A stretch of DNA of 15,338 bases from Candidatus Aenigmatarchaeota archaeon (GTDB lineage: Archaea; Aenigmatarchaeota; Aenigmatarchaeia; Aenigmatarchaeales; JACQIB01): NCBI GenBank assembly GCA_038999215.1, contig JAWABM010000001.1, positions 1 through 15,338 of the forward strand. The letters are read 5' to 3'. The translations under genes and the position numbers were made by a program. A model generated the notes under the pieces. That model ran no database searches. It worked only from the letters and a program-made list of their open reading frames with translations, and was not told where the DNA came from. Each line of letters opens with the position of its first letter. The stretch's first letter is position 1. Shown piece after piece: positions 6,951 to 13,231 of this stretch.

Positions 6951-6965
6951 GAAAAGCTTTTAATT
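6951..6965 (+). promoter_or_regulatory. BRE/TATA promoter of tRNA-Asn copy 1 (GAAAAGCTTTTAATT)
   Basis: Purine-rich BRE followed by T/A box about 30 nt before the tRNA 5' end. Confidence 0.6.
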
Positions 6966-6995
6966 ATTAATAACCTATGACAAATCTTAATACAT

Positions 6996-7112
6996 GCCCA
7001 GGTAGCTCAGCGGAAGAGCGTCCGGCTGTTAAGAAGCGCCGCCGCTTCATCAGCGGAAGGGCTTCAGACGGGAACCGGCAGGTCGCAGGTTCAAATCCTG
7101 TCCTGGGCGCCA
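6996..7112 (+). tRNA. tRNA-Asn(GTT) with 42-nt intron at 37/38 (7032-7073), encoded CCA; copy 1
   Basis: Acceptor GCCCAGG/CCTGGGC, D-arm GCTC/GAGC, anticodon GTT 7028-7030, T-loop TTCAAAT, G73-CCA. Splice motif: CTGT pairs with ACGG (7068-7071) flanked by 3-nt bulges TA|A and GA|A. Confidence 0.96.
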
Positions 7113-7125
7113 TAATGGTGACAGA

Positions 7126-7515
7126 ATGAGAAAAATGCTCGCAATGGCGGTTCTGGCCGCGCTTGTCTGCGGCTGCATAGGCCAGACCGGAACGGACAGC
7201 ACGCCCACGAAAGGCGTTGACTATACCAAGCAGGAAAACCTTGAAGTTGCCAAAGGCGACACGGTTTCCGTATATTACACCGGCACTTTCGTGAACGGTA
7301 CTGTTTTTGACAGCAATGTGGGCGGCCGGGCGCTGACTTTCCGGGCGGGGATGGGGCAGATGATACCGGGCTTCGACAACGGGGTCATAGGCATGAAAAT
7401 GAACGAGGAGAAGACGCTGACCCTGCCGCCTGAGCAGGCGTACGGCACAGGCAGCCACCCGCTGGCGAACGAGACACTGGTATTCAAGGTAAAGGTAGTG
7501 TCGATAAGCAAGTAG
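7126..7515 (+). CDS. FKBP-type peptidyl-prolyl cis-trans isomerase, probably lipoprotein/secreted
   Basis: GDTVSVYYTGTF.NGTVFDS, F..G.GQMIPGFD.GV.GM, PPEQAYG, L.NETLVFKV. N-terminal signal with CGC lipobox-like motif. GGTGA SD. Confidence 0.93.
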   Translation: MRKMLAMAVLAALVCGCIGQTGTDSTPTKGVDYTKQENLEVAKGDTVSVYYTGTFVNGTVFDSNVGGRALTFRAGMGQMIPGFDNGVIGMKMNEEKTLTLPPEQAYGTGSHPLANETLVFKVKVVSISK

Positions 7516-8729: not shown

Positions 8730-9362
8730 TTAGCCCGGCAGGGCGGGATAGAAGACGTCGAGAAGGTAGTCGTGCTTCATGCCCTCTATCTCCCTTGTCG
8801 CGACCCCCTGGCGCGCCAAGGCAGCGGCCATCCTGTCGACGCAGCCCGTCTGCTGGTCGTTCGAATAGAGGCCGCATATCTCGGCAGTCGCGCCCTTCCC
8901 CAGCAACGCCCTTATTGCAGCGGCAGCTGCGCGGAAGCCTGTCTCAGGCCAGCATTCGACGAGAACCATCTCCTTTTCCGAGATGTCCGGCCTGATGGCC
9001 CTCGGCACGCTCTTGTAAAGCTCCCTAAAGTATTCCCCGTCAATCTTCGCCCTCTTGAAGCGCGGATGGCGCAGGAAGTAGGCCATGTTCTCTCTCCTGC
9101 TGAGCCTCCATTGCGGCAGATGGACGCCCTCGGCGTCGAGCTTTATCAGGCGGTAGCTGTCATAAATTCCTGCCTCGCGATCAAATTCGTCGACATCGAT
9201 GAAATCATTGGAGTAGTTGTGCACTATTATGGTGCCGTTGCCCCTTTCCTCGCGGAGCCTCTTGCCTATCCTGCCTGTCAGCTCGCGGACGACAGAGCCG
9301 TCGCTCAGCTCGCACATGAAGTTCGGGTGCTGGACAATGAACGCATGGCCGTATTTTTTCAT
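8730..9362 (-). CDS. Hypothetical protein with weak isochorismatase/cysteine hydrolase-like C-terminus
   Basis: 210-aa ORF with its own promoter-like box. EICGLYSNDQQTGCVDRMAAALARQG loosely resembles the xxGxxxxxCVxxTA motif. Confidence 0.55.
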   Translation of the reverse strand: MKKYGHAFIVQHPNFMCELSDGSVVRELTGRIGKRLREERGNGTIIVHNYSNDFIDVDEFDREAGIYDSYRLIKLDAEGVHLPQWRLSRRENMAYFLRHPRFKRAKIDGEYFRELYKSVPRAIRPDISEKEMVLVECWPETGFRAAAAAIRALLGKGATAEICGLYSNDQQTGCVDRMAAALARQGVATREIEGMKHDYLLDVFYPALPG

Positions 9363-9379
9363 GAGAAGAGTTCGGAAAC

Positions 9380-9396
9380 AAAGGATTTATGCTTTT
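9380..9396. promoter_or_regulatory. Probable bidirectional core promoter AAAGGATTTATGCTTTT between divergent leaderless genes
   Basis: Centred about 25 nt from both ATG 9362 (-) and ATG 9415 (+). The 12-mer GATTTATGCTTT recurs upstream of thyX at 14955-14966. Confidence 0.55.
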
Positions 9397-9414
9397 CCGC
9401 CCAATATTTCCGTC

Positions 9415-10704
9415 ATGGCAAAATATCAGGTTAACATGCGCGGCAAGGACCTGGAAGGGAGCATAGACACCATAGTCAGCAGGCTCAGAAGGAGGCTGCC
9501 GGACAAGGGCTACAAGGCCGATGTCAGGAAGAACAGGGACGGCAGCATCGCCATAGACACCGAAGCTCCGTATGCCGCCGTTGACGAGGCGATGGGCACG
9601 ATAAGGCAAAACATGGTCGGGCCCAGAGGCATGTGGATGACTTACAACATCAGCGAGCTTGACGAGAACGGCGTGAAGAAGGAGGAAGAGGGGGAGGAAA
9701 GCGCGCGCCACGAAAAGGAAATAGAGAGCATCGCCAGGACGTACAACATAATTCTTCAGAAGAAGGACGAGGAGATAACGCAGCTTAACGAGGCGAAGAG
9801 GGCGCTGGTCAGCATAAAGGAGCAGAAGGACCAGCAAATAGCCGACCTGCAAGAGGAGCACAGGAAGAAAATTGCGGAGCAAGAGGAGAAATACAACAAG
9901 CTCAAGAGGGATTATGAAGCGCTCTCCAAGATGATCGAAGGCATAGGCAAAAAGGAGGCCTGCACGACCGAGGCCTGCCTCAGGGAGCTCGAGGAATATT
10001 CGCTCGCCCTCGAGTCGGCGGACGTGAAAATGGACAACGTTGACCTAGGGACGGCGCTTGAGGCGGCGAAAATGAGCCTCGACGACTGGCTCAAGACAAA
10101 CGGCGCAGATAATGCGCCTGAGCAGGAGCTTGTCAAATGGACCGACTCGGAATATTGCAAAACCGCCTTGGCAAATTATGAGAAGGCGCGCGCGGAGAAC
10201 GCATATATACTGAAAGCCAGGAGCGGGGAAGCTGGCATACCGCCGAGCCTGCTCGAGATACTTGAGAAAAGCGCGGATTTCGAGGGCAACAGGGCGCTCA
10301 TAGAGGAATTCGAAGCCAAGAAGGCCGAATACGACGCTAAGGCAGAGCTGCACGAAAAGGCCAAGAAGCTGCGCCGGGCGCATGCGAAGGGCGCCGAACT
10401 GAAGAAGGCCCTGGAAAGCATCAGCCGTGAAGTGCCGTTATACCTTGAAATGAGGGCTGGCATGGCATGCACCCTTACCCTGCCCGTCATGCAAACCGAA
10501 GAGCACGGCGCCATAGCATCCGCCATAATCGAAAGCGTTTCGCAGACAGGCAAAGGCAACCGGATGAAGAATAACGAGATGCTTGCTTTCGACCTCGGCC
10601 AGAACCCAGAAGGGTTCGACATAATCGGTATCAAGAAGGAAATCGATGATAAGCTCGGAAGGGGCTTCGGGCTGAAGGCAAGGCTCTTTGTGAACTATTG
10701 CTGA
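9415..10704 (+). CDS. Hypothetical coiled-coil-rich protein (429 aa)
   Basis: E/K-rich heptad stretches in the centre with globular ends. Start moved from 9217 (overlaps the opposite gene) to ATG 9415. Confidence 0.75.
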   Translation: MAKYQVNMRGKDLEGSIDTIVSRLRRRLPDKGYKADVRKNRDGSIAIDTEAPYAAVDEAMGTIRQNMVGPRGMWMTYNISELDENGVKKEEEGEESARHEKEIESIARTYNIILQKKDEEITQLNEAKRALVSIKEQKDQQIADLQEEHRKKIAEQEEKYNKLKRDYEALSKMIEGIGKKEACTTEACLRELEEYSLALESADVKMDNVDLGTALEAAKMSLDDWLKTNGADNAPEQELVKWTDSEYCKTALANYEKARAENAYILKARSGEAGIPPSLLEILEKSADFEGNRALIEEFEAKKAEYDAKAELHEKAKKLRRAHAKGAELKKALESISREVPLYLEMRAGMACTLTLPVMQTEEHGAIASAIIESVSQTGKGNRMKNNEMLAFDLGQNPEGFDIIGIKKEIDDKLGRGFGLKARLFVNYC

Positions 10705-10754
10705 GCCCACGAAACAGCTCCTTTTATAAGTTACTACCGCCTAATAATTATCAG

Positions 10755-11064
10755 GTGAAACCTGTGAGAGGGGATCTAGAAAATAACGGATTCTCAGGAT
10801 CTGCGTAGTTTCACCGCTAAAGTCGATTCAAAAGGAAGGATTCTTGTCCCGAAGCCAATAAGGCTGCTCTATTCCCTTGACCGAGACTCGGTCGTTTCGC
10901 TTCATGTTGCCCAGGTAGCTCAGCGGAAGAGCGTCCGGCTGTTAAGAAGCGCCGCCGCTTCATCAGCGGAAGGGCTTCAGACGGGAACCGGCAGGTCGCA
11001 GGTTCAAATCCTGTCCTGGGCGCCAAAGCTTAAAAAAGAGGCAGGGCTAATAGAAGGTGATTGA
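10755..11064 (+). pseudogene. AbrB/MazE/SpoVT-family DNA-binding domain reading frame lacking a canonical in-frame start; runs through tRNA-Asn copy 2
   Basis: Frame open 10780-11064 encodes SFTAKVDSKGRILVPKPIRLLYSLDRDSVVSLHV (swapped-hairpin signature). TTTTATAA at 10722-10729. GTG 10755/10764 lie one base out of frame; ATA 10783 follows GAGGGG. Confidence 0.65.
10909..11025 (+). tRNA. tRNA-Asn(GTT) with 42-nt intron (10945-10986), encoded CCA; copy 2, identical to copy 1
   Basis: Base-for-base match to 6996-7112 including the intron. Confidence 0.96.
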
Positions 11065-11065
11065 A

Positions 11066-12328
11066 ATGTTCATTGCGATAACCGAAATACCGAAGCATGA
11101 CGGCAGAGAAGTGGCGCTGCGCGGCTGGGTGCAGCGCAAGCGCGACCAGAAAGAGCTAGTATTCATCATACTGAGGGACGCGACCGGGACAGCCCAGCTG
11201 GCCTGCAAGGGCCTGCCTGAGGCCAAGAAAGCCACAATCGAGAGCTCTATAGAAGTCATCGGAACAGTGAAAAAGGACGAGCGCGCTCCCGGCGGATACG
11301 AGATAAAGGCCGAGAAGATCAAGATTATAGGGCTGGCAGAGCGCTGGCCAATCGAGCAGATCAAAGGCAAGGAGCTCACGGAGGAGTTTCTGCGCGACAT
11401 GCGCCATCTTTCGATAAGAGGCTCCAAGCTCACCGCAATGCTAAAAGTGCGCTCGGCCGTGTTCCAAGGGCTGAGAAAGTTCTACGAGGAGCGCGGATTC
11501 TTTGAGGTGCAGTCGCCCATATTCACGACCGCCGGCTGCGAGGGCGGGTCCACCCTATTCAAGGTTGATTATGGAAGCAAGAAGGTGTATCTTTCGCAGA
11601 GCTGGCAGCTCTATGCGGAAGCGATGATATACTCGCTGGGGAAGATATACACGATTTCACCGTCGTTCAGGGCCGAAAAATCAAGGACGGTCCGCCATTT
11701 GTCAGAATACTGGCACCATGAGATGGAGGCCGCCTGGATGGGCTTTGACGAGCTGCTCGAGTTCGAAGAGGACCTGATAATTTTCATAGCCAAGTACGTG
11801 CGCGAGCACTGCGCCGCTGAATTGAAGGAATTGGGAGCCGATTTCAAAAGGCTTGAAGGCATAAAGAAGCCATTCATGAGGATGACCTACGCTGAAGCCA
11901 CCAAAAGGCTCGGCAAGAAGCACGGCGACGACATCACGGACAAAGAGGAGCGCGAGCTGCTCAAACTGATGGGCGACGCCCCGATGTTCCTGACCGCGTT
12001 TCCGCGCGACATGAAGGCGTTCTACATGAGGCCCGACCCGAAGGACAAGAAGACCGTGCTGGCGGCGGACTTGCTTTTGCCGGGCGTGGGGGAAACCATC
12101 GGCGGCAGCGAAAGGATAATGGACGAGAAGGAGCTGCTCGAGAGCCTGAAGATGTTCGGCCTGAAGAAGGAGGATTACGAATGGTACCTTGACCTGCGAC
12201 GCTTCGGAACCGTCCCGCACTCCGGGTTCGGCCTGGGCATAGAGCGCCTGCTGATGTTCCTCACGGGAGTGCCGCACATATTCGACACCATAGCCTTCCC
12301 GCGCACGCTCGACAGGGTCACTCCTTAA
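11066..12328 (+). CDS. asnS: Asparagine--tRNA ligase (class IIb)
   Basis: OB-fold N-terminus (RGWV..KR....VFIILRD), YLSQS.QLY.E, motif 2 FRAEKSRTVRHLSEYW, GGSER, motif 3 YLDLRRFGTVPHSGFGLGIER. Start at ATG 11066 after AGGTGA. Confidence 0.9.
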   Translation: MFIAITEIPKHDGREVALRGWVQRKRDQKELVFIILRDATGTAQLACKGLPEAKKATIESSIEVIGTVKKDERAPGGYEIKAEKIKIIGLAERWPIEQIKGKELTEEFLRDMRHLSIRGSKLTAMLKVRSAVFQGLRKFYEERGFFEVQSPIFTTAGCEGGSTLFKVDYGSKKVYLSQSWQLYAEAMIYSLGKIYTISPSFRAEKSRTVRHLSEYWHHEMEAAWMGFDELLEFEEDLIIFIAKYVREHCAAELKELGADFKRLEGIKKPFMRMTYAEATKRLGKKHGDDITDKEERELLKLMGDAPMFLTAFPRDMKAFYMRPDPKDKKTVLAADLLLPGVGETIGGSERIMDEKELLESLKMFGLKKEDYEWYLDLRRFGTVPHSGFGLGIERLLMFLTGVPHIFDTIAFPRTLDRVTP

Positions 12329-13110: not shown

Positions 13111-13231
13111 GGGCCCGTGGCTTAGCATGGATAGAGCGCCTGGCTTCGGAGCACCCTTTTAAGAAAAGGCTGCACCGAAAAACCGCGGAGAAACCAGGAA
13201 ATCGGGGGTTCGAATCCCTCCGGGCCCGCCA
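13111..13231 (+). tRNA. tRNA-Arg(TCG) with 43-nt intron at 37/38 (13150-13192), encoded CCA
   Basis: Acceptor GGGCCCG/CGGGCCC, anticodon stem CCTGG/CCAGG, TCG 13146-13148, T-loop TTCGAAT. BHB: CTTC pairs with GGAG (13187-13190), bulges GG|A and AA|A. TTAAAT upstream. Confidence 0.96.

What the first reader, a model, noticed from the sequence alone, without database searches (positions are those of the whole stretch)
10722..11064. AbrB/MazE-type DNA-binding domain encoded in a frame that runs through an entire intron-containing tRNA-Asn gene and stops at the asnS start
Seen: an ORF missed by the track (open 10780-11064) encodes FTAKVDSKGRILVPKPIRLLYSLDRDSVVSLHV. The domain ends exactly where the tRNA begins (10909), and the frame continues stop-free through the tRNA to TGA 11062-11064, one base before the asnS ATG. 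The 42-nt intron occupies exactly 14 whole codons, so splicing would keep the frame. The only clear TATA box for this tRNA copy (10722-10729) lies upstream of the AbrB frame. Known: (K/T)VDxKGRIxIPxxIR is the AbrB/MazE/SpoVT/MraZ swapped-hairpin signature, and RNase P/Z cut at tRNA ends. Inference: one transcript could be regulator mRNA, pre-tRNA and asnS leader. RNase P cleavage would leave a stop-less AbrB mRNA, so translation and tRNA maturation would compete. That could couple regulator level or asnS expression to tRNA processing. Alternatively a tRNA copy landed in and truncated an abrB gene. There is no canonical start: it needs ATA 10783 or loss of one A in AAAA 10780-10783 to join GTG 10755/10764.
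Basis: partly seen in the sequence, partly recalled or inferred. Interest (0 to 1): 0.85.

Follow-up and report, generated by a model that had tools for sequence, protein, structure and literature searches.

The report
AbrB-type gene fused to tRNA-Asn
A small DNA-binding-type gene, a transfer-RNA gene and the matching charging-enzyme gene sit head to tail as one unit in a tiny hot-spring archaeon, and related genomes show this layout is a family habit, though this particular copy of the small gene looks damaged.

Summary
An AbrB/MraZ-like frame (10780-10908) runs without a stop through an intron-bearing tRNA-Asn (10909-11025) to TGA 11062-11064, inside the asnS start region. The only promoter-like box lies upstream (10722-10729).

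The open frame through the tRNA is not itself special: 2 of 3 frames are open.

Comparison shows a conserved module in Aenigmatarchaeota (DPANN). It consists of a family-specific promoter (CCCAC box plus TATA), a 52-64 aa AbrB-like gene, then asnS, sometimes with asnA and tRNA-Asn between. The AbrB gene precedes 13 of 26 asnS orthologues in the order.

A paralogue precedes tRNA-His and often hisS. Its frame runs through the whole tRNA with no earlier stop in 10 of 13 such loci in the order and 3 loci in other orders. One genome of another order (G186) repeats AbrB-through-tRNA-Asn-asnS.

The window's copy is atypical. It has no in-frame start: GGG stands where relatives have GTG, and TAG is codon 3. 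It is one base out of frame with GTG 10755/10764. It also lacks its tail, its stop and asnA.

Best reading: one transcript carrying a probably impaired regulator gene, pre-tRNA-Asn and asnS.

The parts
10706..10710 (+). CCCAC box directly upstream of the TATA box; candidate operator or BRE-position element of the AbrB-family promoter
   Evidence: Conserved upstream of nearly all AbrB-family genes compared. The 18-mer CCCACATARNTTTAWAWA gave 16 hits in 42 genomes and 0 in the reversed control; all 16 lie upstream of AbrB-family ORFs. The window has the variant CCCACGAAACAGC shared with the same-genus relative.
10722..10729 (+). TATA-like box TTTTATAA; inferred transcription start near 10752-10755
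   Evidence: Its position relative to AGGTGA is conserved in the orthologues. The start-site position is inferred from the usual archaeal spacing (recalled).
10753..10779 (+). Conserved leader and initiation region: AGGTGA (10753-10758), GTG 10755 and GTG 10764 (both one base out of frame with the AbrB frame), GGG 10771-10773 where orthologues have the GTG start, TAG 10777-10779 in frame
   Evidence: Codon-by-codon comparison with 25 related loci; frames.
10780..10908 (+). AbrB/MraZ-type swapped-hairpin domain frame (43 codons), without its own start or stop
   Evidence: All 5 invariant and 2 nearly invariant family positions are kept.
10909..11025 (+). tRNA-Asn(GUU) copy 2 with encoded CCA; 42-nt intron at 10945-10986
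   Evidence: Rfam 55.3 bits; ARAGORN with introns; fold; identical to copy 1 over 118 nt.
11026..11064 (+). Spacer with the asnS ribosome-binding region (GAAGGTGA) and TGA 11062-11064, which ends the through-tRNA frame
   Evidence: The region is homologous to the asnS upstream region of G001 and G005.
11057..12328 (+). asnS, asparagine--tRNA ligase (GTG 11057, or ATG 11066)
   Evidence: NCBIfam NF003037, 443.2 bits against a cut-off of 414; Pfam tRNA-synt_2 and anticodon-binding OB domain.
6996..7112 (+). tRNA-Asn(GUU) copy 1, free-standing with its own A/T-rich box (about 6959-6976); likely donor of the sequence of copy 2

Best explanation
Window 10706-11064 is the head of the asnS operon of an Aenigmatarchaeota (DPANN) archaeon.

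In this lineage a dedicated promoter (CCCAC box plus TATA) drives a small AbrB/MraZ-type gene. That gene is followed on the same strand by asnS, in some genomes with asparagine synthetase A and a tRNA-Asn in between. In this genome I infer a deletion between the 3' end of the AbrB gene and the 5' end of the tRNA, across the near-identical stretch GTTGCCCnGG. It removed the AbrB tail, its stop codon and asnA. The tRNA was then made identical to the free-standing copy at 6996-7112, probably by gene conversion.

The AbrB frame therefore runs on through the tRNA and ends by accident at a TGA in the asnS ribosome-binding region. The copy has also lost the family's GTG start, so it is probably impaired or dying. 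It is still one base from an intact frame and keeps every conserved residue.

The tRNA has no promoter of its own. I infer it is made from the AbrB promoter as part of one precursor: AbrB leader/mRNA, pre-tRNA-Asn, asnS mRNA. RNase P, a 3' nuclease and the splicing endonuclease would cut the tRNA out.

Shown here: sequence anatomy, family membership, synteny, promoter conservation, presence of RNase P RNA.
Inferred: co-transcription, the deletion, gene conversion, autoregulation by the AbrB protein at the CCCAC box.
For: Family membership:
- A profile of 14 orthologues hits 2glw_A (a Pyrococcus two-repeat AbrB-like protein) at E=1.6e-9. SpoVT, AbrB, Abh and MraZ hit more weakly.
- 14 of 14 members hit Pfam MraZ and 11 of 14 hit MazE_antitoxin at E<=0.1.

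Synteny:
- An AbrB gene lies upstream on the same strand of 13 of 26 asnS orthologues found in 42 genomes of the order.
- The order AbrB, asnA-like, asnS occurs in G036 and G039. AbrB, asnA-like, tRNA-Asn, asnS occurs in the same-genus G001 and in G110 of another order.

Promoter:
- It is conserved across loci and orders.
- All 16 exact 18-mer hits precede AbrB genes.

No promoter for tRNA copy 2. RNase P RNA is present at 95.9 bits.

The only tRNA-His gene found in this assembly lies in the same way inside the paralogue's frame, also without a promoter. This organism therefore has to process tRNAs out of such co-transcripts.

Deletion:
- G001's AbrB ends ...GTT GCC CTG GAG GTG TTG AAA TGA. 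The window reads ...CAT GTT|GCC CAG GTA G.
- The spacer between tRNA and asnS is homologous in both genomes.
- No asnA-like hit was found in G000.

Start defect.
Against: - No transcript data exist, so a weak internal promoter cannot be excluded.
- The genome is 88% complete, so another tRNA-His or an asnA gene may be unassembled.
- The window copy keeps all 7 conserved positions of the family. That argues against long-standing decay.
- Four other loci also lack a regular in-frame start yet keep intact domains. Two have TAG at the same third codon (G034 and G031).
- The other two are class-Y loci, and that pair shows dN/dS of about 0.3. An unusual way of starting translation, rather than decay, is therefore possible.
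- The sequence at 10771-10783 could not be checked against reads.
Confidence: 0.6

Rival explanations
1. The AbrB frame deliberately has no stop before the tRNA. Ribosomes reading into the tRNA block its folding, and RNase P cleavage leaves a stop-less AbrB mRNA. Regulator output, tRNA maturation and downstream synthetase translation would thus be coupled.
For: - The paralogue's frame passes through the whole tRNA-His with no earlier stop in 10 of 13 loci of the order.
- It does the same in 3 loci of other orders: G083, G192, G072.
- It always reads in the same register, although linker lengths differ.
- The codon before G-1 is AAT in 8 of 10 loci.
- In G025 an inserted racemase-like ORF takes over the same stop-less junction.
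- In G083 one 527-codon frame spans AbrB, tRNA-His and hisS.
- G186 has AbrB reading through tRNA-Asn and stopping 8 nt before the asnS ATG.
- In the window the frame ends inside the asnS start.
- The same logic was proposed for selB/selC (PMC8124441; abstract and sections 2.6 and 3 read).
Against: - The register used is open in tRNA-His genes that have no AbrB in front (2 of 2 controls).
- Stops after the tRNA fall 8-48 nt downstream at varying places, so the tail is not conserved as protein.
- Kin share the junction by descent, so the counts are not independent.
- Other ORFs of this genome overlap tRNAs and end at the tRNA's own UAG at positions 8-10 (also G110 asnA). G001's asnA stops 8 nt before the tRNA. 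Overlap therefore looks like compaction.
- The window's own copy has no start to translate from.
Confidence: 0.2
2. The AbrB gene of the window is intact in the cell. The missing start would be a sequence or assembly error in a thinly covered genome, or translation would begin in an unusual way: at ATA 10783, or by a +1 shift from GTG 10755/10764.
For: - The frame is one base from joining GTG 10764.
- All conserved residues are kept.
- The only DNA run holding the region has contigs at depth of about 3-4.
- Startless but conserved relatives exist. Their dN/dS is 0.30 in the AbrB frame against more than 1 in the other two frames.
- In those class-Y loci the AbrB frame is likewise +1 of a short GTG frame.
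Against: - The region differs from relatives at several bases, not one.
- AAAA is too short for common slippage errors (established knowledge, recalled).
- No shift signal was recognised.
- No read evidence either way.
Confidence: 0.15
3. A tRNA-Asn copy recently landed in, and truncated, an otherwise ordinary abrB gene: a one-off insertion.
For: The two tRNA copies are identical over exactly 118 nt, 3913 nt apart. Orthologues of the order have their own stop.
Against: - A tRNA-Asn directly upstream of asnS is also present in G001, G040, G110 and G186.
- The spacer between tRNA and asnS is homologous between the window and G001.
- The tRNA was therefore already there. Identity limited to the tRNA fits gene conversion.
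Confidence: 0.05

Closest known systems
selB ORF containing the whole tRNA-Sec gene (selC) in Alphaproteobacteria (Mukai 2021, PMC8124441; abstract and sections 2.6 and 3 read)
   Same: An entire tRNA lies inside a protein ORF on the same strand, and the ORF ends at or over the start of the next ORF. The tRNA and the protein belong to one amino-acid pathway. The proposed consequence is the same: tRNA processing leaves a stop-less mRNA, so protein and tRNA output are alternatives.
   Different: That case is bacterial and the host ORF is an elongation factor. Here the organism is an archaeon, the host is a small AbrB-type gene, and three tRNA kinds are involved (His, Asn, a Tyr-like one). One tRNA carries an intron. 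The paper calls its case the first in bacteria; my searches found none described for archaea.
MraZ, first gene of the bacterial division and cell-wall operon (recalled; Pfam PF02381)
   Same: A swapped-hairpin protein with the DxxGR(I/V)xxP motif, encoded as the first gene of the operon that it is thought to control. The tRNA-His-linked paralogue has two tandem half-domains, like MraZ.
   Different: The asnS-linked form has a single repeat of 52-64 aa. The operons hold tRNA and synthetase genes, not division genes. DNA binding was not tested.
AbrB / SpoVT / Abh N-domains, and the archaeal PhS018 (2glw) and AbrB-family histone-like proteins (5itj/5itm)
   Same: Profile hits are 2glw_A E=1.6e-9, SpoVT 0.0023, 5itm 0.0046 and AbrB 0.0077. 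The predicted monomer superposes on them over 30-34 residues at 1.2-1.8 A.
   Different: Foldseek E-values are all above 0.4 because the query is short. An extra N-terminal segment (VDVKIW...) is conserved in this family.
MazE/VapB-type antitoxins
   Same: Same domain family in Pfam (PF04014).
   Different: No toxin gene follows. The neighbour is a tRNA or a synthetase in every locus examined.
tRNA punctuation and nested tRNAs in animal mitochondria (recalled; mentioned in PMC8124441 section 3)
   Same: mRNAs and tRNAs are cut from one precursor, and ORFs lack complete stops at tRNA borders.
   Different: There the stop is completed by polyadenylation. Here the frame is complete at the border, so no such repair is evident.

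Membership tests
AbrB/MazE/SpoVT/MraZ swapped-hairpin superfamily | Sequence profile match over the hairpin-helix core | tested here: met
   The window fragment alone is below Pfam's cut-off (15.9 against 24.7 bits). The family profile hits 2glw_A at E=1.6e-9 plus SpoVT, AbrB, Abh and MraZ. 14 of 14 members hit MraZ and 11 of 14 hit MazE_antitoxin at E<=0.1.
AbrB/MazE/SpoVT/MraZ swapped-hairpin superfamily | Fold: beta-beta-alpha-beta half-barrel | tested here: inconclusive
   AlphaFold2 monomer of the 43 residues has mean pLDDT 80.5, but DSSP assigns only one helix. 13 of the top 14 Foldseek hits are AbrB-type or related small barrel proteins (TM 0.37-0.69), but none reaches E<=0.001.
AbrB/MazE/SpoVT/MraZ swapped-hairpin superfamily | Obligate dimer forming the interleaved barrel; DNA binding | not testable with these tools
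   Needs purified protein (gel filtration, band shift on the CCCAC-box promoter).
MraZ proper | Two tandem repeats in one chain | tested here: not met
   The window gene and its asnS-linked orthologues have one repeat. The tRNA-His-linked paralogue of families f1, f5, f7 and g18 has two.
Toxin-antitoxin antitoxin (MazE/VapB) | Adjacent cognate toxin gene | tested here: not met
   The downstream neighbours are tRNA-Asn and asnS in the window, and tRNA or synthetase genes in relatives.
tRNA nested in a protein ORF (selB/selC type) | Whole tRNA on the same strand inside an uninterrupted frame | tested here: met
tRNA nested in a protein ORF (selB/selC type) | The ORF has a usable start | tested here: not met
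   The window has no in-frame ATG, GTG or TTG after TAG 10777. The feature is met in the tRNA-His paralogues.
tRNA nested in a protein ORF (selB/selC type) | Arrangement conserved in relatives | tested here: inconclusive
   Not conserved for this orthologue within the order (0 of 12 others). Present in G186 of another order. Conserved for the tRNA-His paralogue (10 of 13 loci plus 3 elsewhere).
tRNA-Asn | Cloverleaf, GUU anticodon, intron at 37/38 | tested here: met
   Rfam 55.3 bits; ARAGORN Asn(gtt) i(36,42); the minimum-energy fold keeps acceptor, D and T arms. The bulge-helix-bulge geometry of the splice sites was not examined.
Asparagine--tRNA ligase (asnS) | Curated equivalog model above cut-off | tested here: met
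   NF003037, 443.2 against 414 bits.

The most novel reading that the evidence does not exclude
In Aenigmatarchaeota a family of small AbrB/MraZ-like proteins, each expressed from a private CCCAC-box promoter, would be the transcriptional regulators of operons that pair a tRNA with its own charging enzyme (His, Asn, perhaps Tyr; a tRNA-Cys/cysS unit carries the same box). Their reading frames would be kept without a stop before the co-transcribed tRNA. Cutting out the tRNA and translating the regulator, and coupling to the synthetase, would then exclude each other. This would be the first archaeal case of tRNAs nested in protein frames and the first dedicated control system proposed for archaeal tRNA/synthetase genes.
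Probability: 0.25. Interest if true: 0.8.

Novelty: new variant of a known kind. Interest (0 to 1): 0.6.

Why it matters
No dedicated regulator of aminoacyl-tRNA synthetase or tRNA genes is described for archaea, to my recollection. Six literature searches found nothing on this arrangement.

A promoter box found only in front of one small DNA-binding-type gene family gives a directly testable candidate. The genes of that family head units of a tRNA plus its matching synthetase across several orders.

The sole tRNA-His gene of the assembly is embedded in a protein frame without a promoter. These cells must therefore routinely cut tRNAs out of messenger RNAs and cope with messages that lose their stop codon.

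For annotation, gene callers will either miss these small genes or call ORFs that swallow tRNAs.

The window's own copy is the least informative member, because it looks damaged.

Tried and rejected
- Reads: the look-up of sequencing runs listed one DNA holder (share 0.42) and no RNA holder. Read laying on X1-X3 gave Logan contigs covering 10425-10692 and 11126-11400 at depth of about 3-4, plus short tRNA pieces from other organisms. Nothing covered 10706-10909, so neither the bases at 10771-10783 nor transcription could be checked.
- Complex prediction on two copies of the same-genus orthologue with an 11-row alignment gave no verdict: score 0.35 against the mark of 0.42.
With A1 it gave 6 loci. 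These served mainly to name the phylum from record titles (Candidatus Aenigmatarchaeota).
- A DNA search with the tRNA-His sequence found only 3 of 42 genomes. It was too insensitive to give a denominator of all tRNA-His genes.
- A strict TATA regular expression misclassified many tRNA promoters. I replaced it with the longest A/T-only run.
- TAG reassignment is rejected. The FKBP gene at 7126-7515 ends at TAG where its domain ends.
- I considered that the RGE/RGD residues after the tRNA were a conserved AbrB tail split by the tRNA. I rejected this: the motif is the AGGTGA ribosome-binding site of the next gene.
- A protein-only RNase P (Pfam PIN_5) was not found in G000, which is 88% complete. 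This is not informative, since the RNA enzyme is present.
- The search of earlier findings by words and by sequence found nothing on this arrangement.

Full report
**What is in the window.** From 10780 it reads KITDSQDLRSFTAKVDSKGRILVPKPIRLLYSLDRDSVVSLHV, continues through a tRNA and ends at TGA 11062-11064.

Rfam places a tRNA at 10909-11022 (55.3 bits). The plain tool missed it. An identical 118-nt copy lies at 6995-7112.

asnS follows. It scores 443.2 bits against NCBIfam NF003037, cut-off 414. It starts at GTG 11057 or ATG 11066.

Both the tRNA and the intron (10945-10986 at the canonical 37/38 site) begin on codon boundaries of the frame. A second frame is also open through the tRNA, so that openness carries little weight.

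**What organism.** The window is the start of a 63-kb contig of a 571-kb, 24-contig genome that is 88% complete. Record titles of the nearest relatives read Candidatus Aenigmatarchaeota. The one run that holds part of the stretch is labelled hot springs metagenome.

**The domain is real and has complete orthologues.** The fragment alone is below Pfam's threshold: MazE_antitoxin E=0.013, MraZ E=0.034.

The same-genus genome G001 and the same-family genome G005 each carry a complete 53-aa gene with the same core. G001's reads MVNEKTWKRAFEDLSSFTAKLDSKGRIIVPKEVRKIKKISPSSKVRVALEVLK.

A 14-sequence alignment (A2) has 5 invariant and 2 nearly invariant positions, and the window keeps all of them. Its profile hits the Pyrococcus two-repeat AbrB-like protein 2glw_A at E=1.6e-9. 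SpoVT, AbrB, Abh and MraZ hit more weakly. 14 of 14 members hit Pfam MraZ and 11 of 14 hit MazE_antitoxin at E<=0.1.

The AlphaFold2 monomer has pLDDT 80.5. It superposes best on SpoVT, AbrB, archaeal AbrB-family histone-like proteins and PhS018, but no Foldseek E-value is significant for so short a query.

**Conserved neighbourhood.** I call the asnS-linked form class N.
- asnS orthologues were found in 26 of the 42 genomes of the order.
- 13 of those 26 have a class-N AbrB gene upstream on the same strand.
- It sits directly in front of asnS in G005, G010, G015, G017, G025, G027, G030, G031 and G034.
- An asparagine-synthetase-A-like gene lies between in G036 and G039. It scores 351.9 bits against NF005052, cut-off 368.
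- That gene plus an intron-less tRNA-Asn lie between in G001.
- The G001 order recurs in G110, a genome of another order. The four-gene asparagine module is therefore old.
- 12 of these relatives in the order end the AbrB gene with its own stop.
- Only the window has the AbrB frame abutting the tRNA.

**How the junction probably arose (inference).** G001's AbrB ends ...GTT GCC CTG GAG GTG TTG AAA TGA. The window reads ...CAT GTT|GCC CAG GTA GCT, where GCCCAGGTAGCT is the 5' end of the tRNA.

The two sequences share GTTGCCCnGG. A deletion across this short homology would remove about 5 AbrB codons, the stop and asnA. No asnA-like hit was found in G000.

The spacer between tRNA and asnS is homologous in the window, G001 and G005, including the GATTGA that holds the terminal TGA. 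In G005 that same TGA is the genuine AbrB stop. The tRNA was thus already in place. Its exact identity with copy 1, confined to the tRNA, fits gene conversion.

**The start.** All loci share one promoter and leader: (T)TTCCCACATAGnTTTAWATA, about 20 nt, then TTACTATTAGGTGAAAnnnATGG GTG GAY. The start is the GTG behind an AGGTGA ribosome-binding site.

The window has GGG (10771-10773) at that place and TAG as codon 3. It has no other in-frame start. GTG 10755 and GTG 10764 lie one base out of frame, so removal of one base around 10779-10783 would give an intact gene.

I therefore rate this copy as probably impaired. Three facts keep me from calling it dead:
- It keeps every conserved residue.
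- G034 and a second locus of G031 have TAG at the same third codon, with intact domains downstream.
- Two further loci (G002, G006; class Y below) have the AbrB frame +1 of a short GTG frame. They still show dN/dS 0.30 in the AbrB frame against more than 1 in the other two frames (23 differences in 229 nt).

I have no explanation for this recurrent oddity at the start.

**One transcript.** The inferred start site, from the usual archaeal TATA spacing (recalled), is at about 10752-10755.

The tRNA has no A/T-rich box. The longest A/T-only run at -50..-16 is 4 nt for tRNA-Asn copy 2 and 3 nt for tRNA-His. It is 6 or more for 39 of the 46 tRNAs predicted in the genome. Copy 1 has its own box.

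RNase P RNA is present (95.9 bits, cut-off 84).

The strongest argument comes from the paralogue. The only tRNA-His gene found in the assembly lies inside the frame of a second AbrB gene on contig 17, again without a promoter. That tRNA must be cut out of a messenger precursor.

I call the tRNA-His-linked form class H. Thirteen such loci were examined in the order.
- In 10 the AbrB frame, with a regular GTG start, runs through the entire tRNA-His with no earlier stop. These are G000, G001, G002, G006, G010, G012, G015, G027, G030 and G036.
- In G025 the AbrB has its own stop, but an inserted racemase-like ORF runs through the tRNA instead.
- In G004 and G034 no tRNA was found within the locus.

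In all 10 the tRNA, counted from G-1, begins on a codon boundary. One search prints phase 2 for L042 because ARAGORN's start there already includes G-1. The peptide register is the same as in the others.

The preceding codon is AAT in 8 of 10 loci.

hisS follows in G000, G001, G010 and G012 (TIGR00442, 374 bits).

Outside the order, the 17 further loci analysed gave:
- three more read-throughs of tRNA-His (G083, G192, G072). In G083 one 527-codon frame spans AbrB, tRNA-His and hisS;
- one read-through of tRNA-Asn ending 8 nt before the asnS ATG (G186, in a different register);
- hisS downstream in 7 loci.

Two loci of one genus (G002, G006; class Y) run through a tRNA-Tyr-like gene with an insert in the D-loop. 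Rfam gave a partial match of 33.4 bits for G002. G006 was matched by sequence likeness only.

**Why I do not adopt the coupling device as the best explanation.**
- The register used is the only open one in 8 of 10 tRNA-His genes. It is equally the only open one in 2 of 2 tRNA-His genes without an AbrB in front, so the tRNA is not shaped by the frame.
- The stops after the tRNA lie 8-48 nt downstream at varying places.
- The junction is shared by descent, so the counts are not independent.
- The same genome has a 215-codon frame that runs into tRNA-Gly(CCC) and ends at the tRNA's own UAG at positions 8-10.
- G110's asnA does the same, while G001's asnA stops 8 nt before the tRNA.

Overlap of ORFs with co-transcribed tRNAs thus looks like a general result of compaction in these 0.5-1 Mb genomes. 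The coupling model remains a serious rival. It is also the model proposed for the one close precedent, the selB frame that contains the whole tRNA-Sec gene in Alphaproteobacteria (PMC8124441; abstract and sections 2.6 and 3 read).

**What the protein probably does (inference).** The exact 18-mer CCCACATARNTTTAWAWA occurs 16 times in the 42 genomes and 0 times in the reversed control. All 16 hits lie in front of AbrB-family ORFs. The box also precedes these genes in other orders.

A box abutting the TATA element, private to a DNA-binding-type gene that heads the operon, is most simply an autoregulatory operator, as recalled for MraZ.

In G000 a near-variant of the box (CCCACATAGGTTTATTTA) precedes the intron-bearing tRNA-Cys, which is followed directly by a cysS-like ORF. 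The cysS name is from reading the sequence and was not profile-tested.

**Literature.** Six full-text searches found no paper on AbrB-type genes with tRNAs or synthetases in archaea, and none on tRNAs nested in archaeal ORFs. The library covers open-access papers and bioRxiv only.

**Verdict.** It is a new variant of a known kind. The wider pattern found through it is of more interest than the locus itself.

Noticed in passing
G000 contig C3, about 42527 to 40910, minus strand (outside the window): A near-variant of the AbrB promoter box (CCCACATAGGTTTATTTA) precedes an intron-bearing tRNA-Cys. A cysS-like ORF (MKLYNTLTRKKEEF...) follows directly. This is a third unit of a tRNA plus its own synthetase carrying the CCCAC box, this one without an AbrB gene.
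   Followed up: partly
G000 contig C16, tRNA-Gly(CCC) at 8903-8976, minus strand: A 215-codon open frame runs into the tRNA and ends at TAG formed by tRNA positions 8-10. The asnA-like ORF of G110 (L111) ends the same way in tRNA-Asn. The tRNA's conserved U8-A9-G10 thus serves as the stop codon of the upstream gene.
   Followed up: partly
L026 (G034), L034/L105 (G031 C4), window 10777-10779: An in-frame TAG sits at the third codon after the family's GTG start in three loci of different genera, with the AbrB domain intact downstream. TAG is a normal stop in G000. Unexplained.
   Followed up: partly
L040 (G002 C4) and L093 (G006 C16): A third AbrB class has a frame that runs through a tRNA-Tyr-like gene with a long insert in the D-loop. 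The AbrB frame is +1 of a 10-codon GTG frame. The start motif GGGTGAATTACTTTATAG recurs at the start of the next gene in G002.
   Followed up: partly
L123 (G083 C10), minus strand 76-1656: A single 527-codon open frame spans the AbrB domain, the whole tRNA-His and a full-length hisS.
   Followed up: no
L045 (G001) 1161-1299 and 2405-2436: A free-standing tRNA-Asn with non-canonical inserts is followed by 1.1 kb holding two ORFs, one with a DTGG aspartic-protease-like motif. Then comes a 20-30-nt repeat of the tRNA's 3' end, directly abutting the AbrB promoter. This looks like the scar of an element integrated at tRNA-Asn.
   Followed up: no
window 13111-13228: A third intron-bearing tRNA (Rfam 52.9 bits). 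ARAGORN labels it SeC(tca) with a 43-nt intron, which is doubtful. Its identity was not resolved.
   Followed up: no
L016 (G000 C17), about 1870-1951: A small ORF (...DLEKVQKDYADGKISDREYNELTILIGAYKIDGG) lies between tRNA-His and hisS, with a counterpart in G010. It resembles a SHOCT-type short C-terminal domain by recall; not profile-tested.
   Followed up: no
window 9217-10704 (+) and 8730-9362 (-): A 495-aa ORF and a 210-aa ORF lie between the two tRNA-Asn copies. Neither has a significant Pfam or NCBIfam match.
   Followed up: partly
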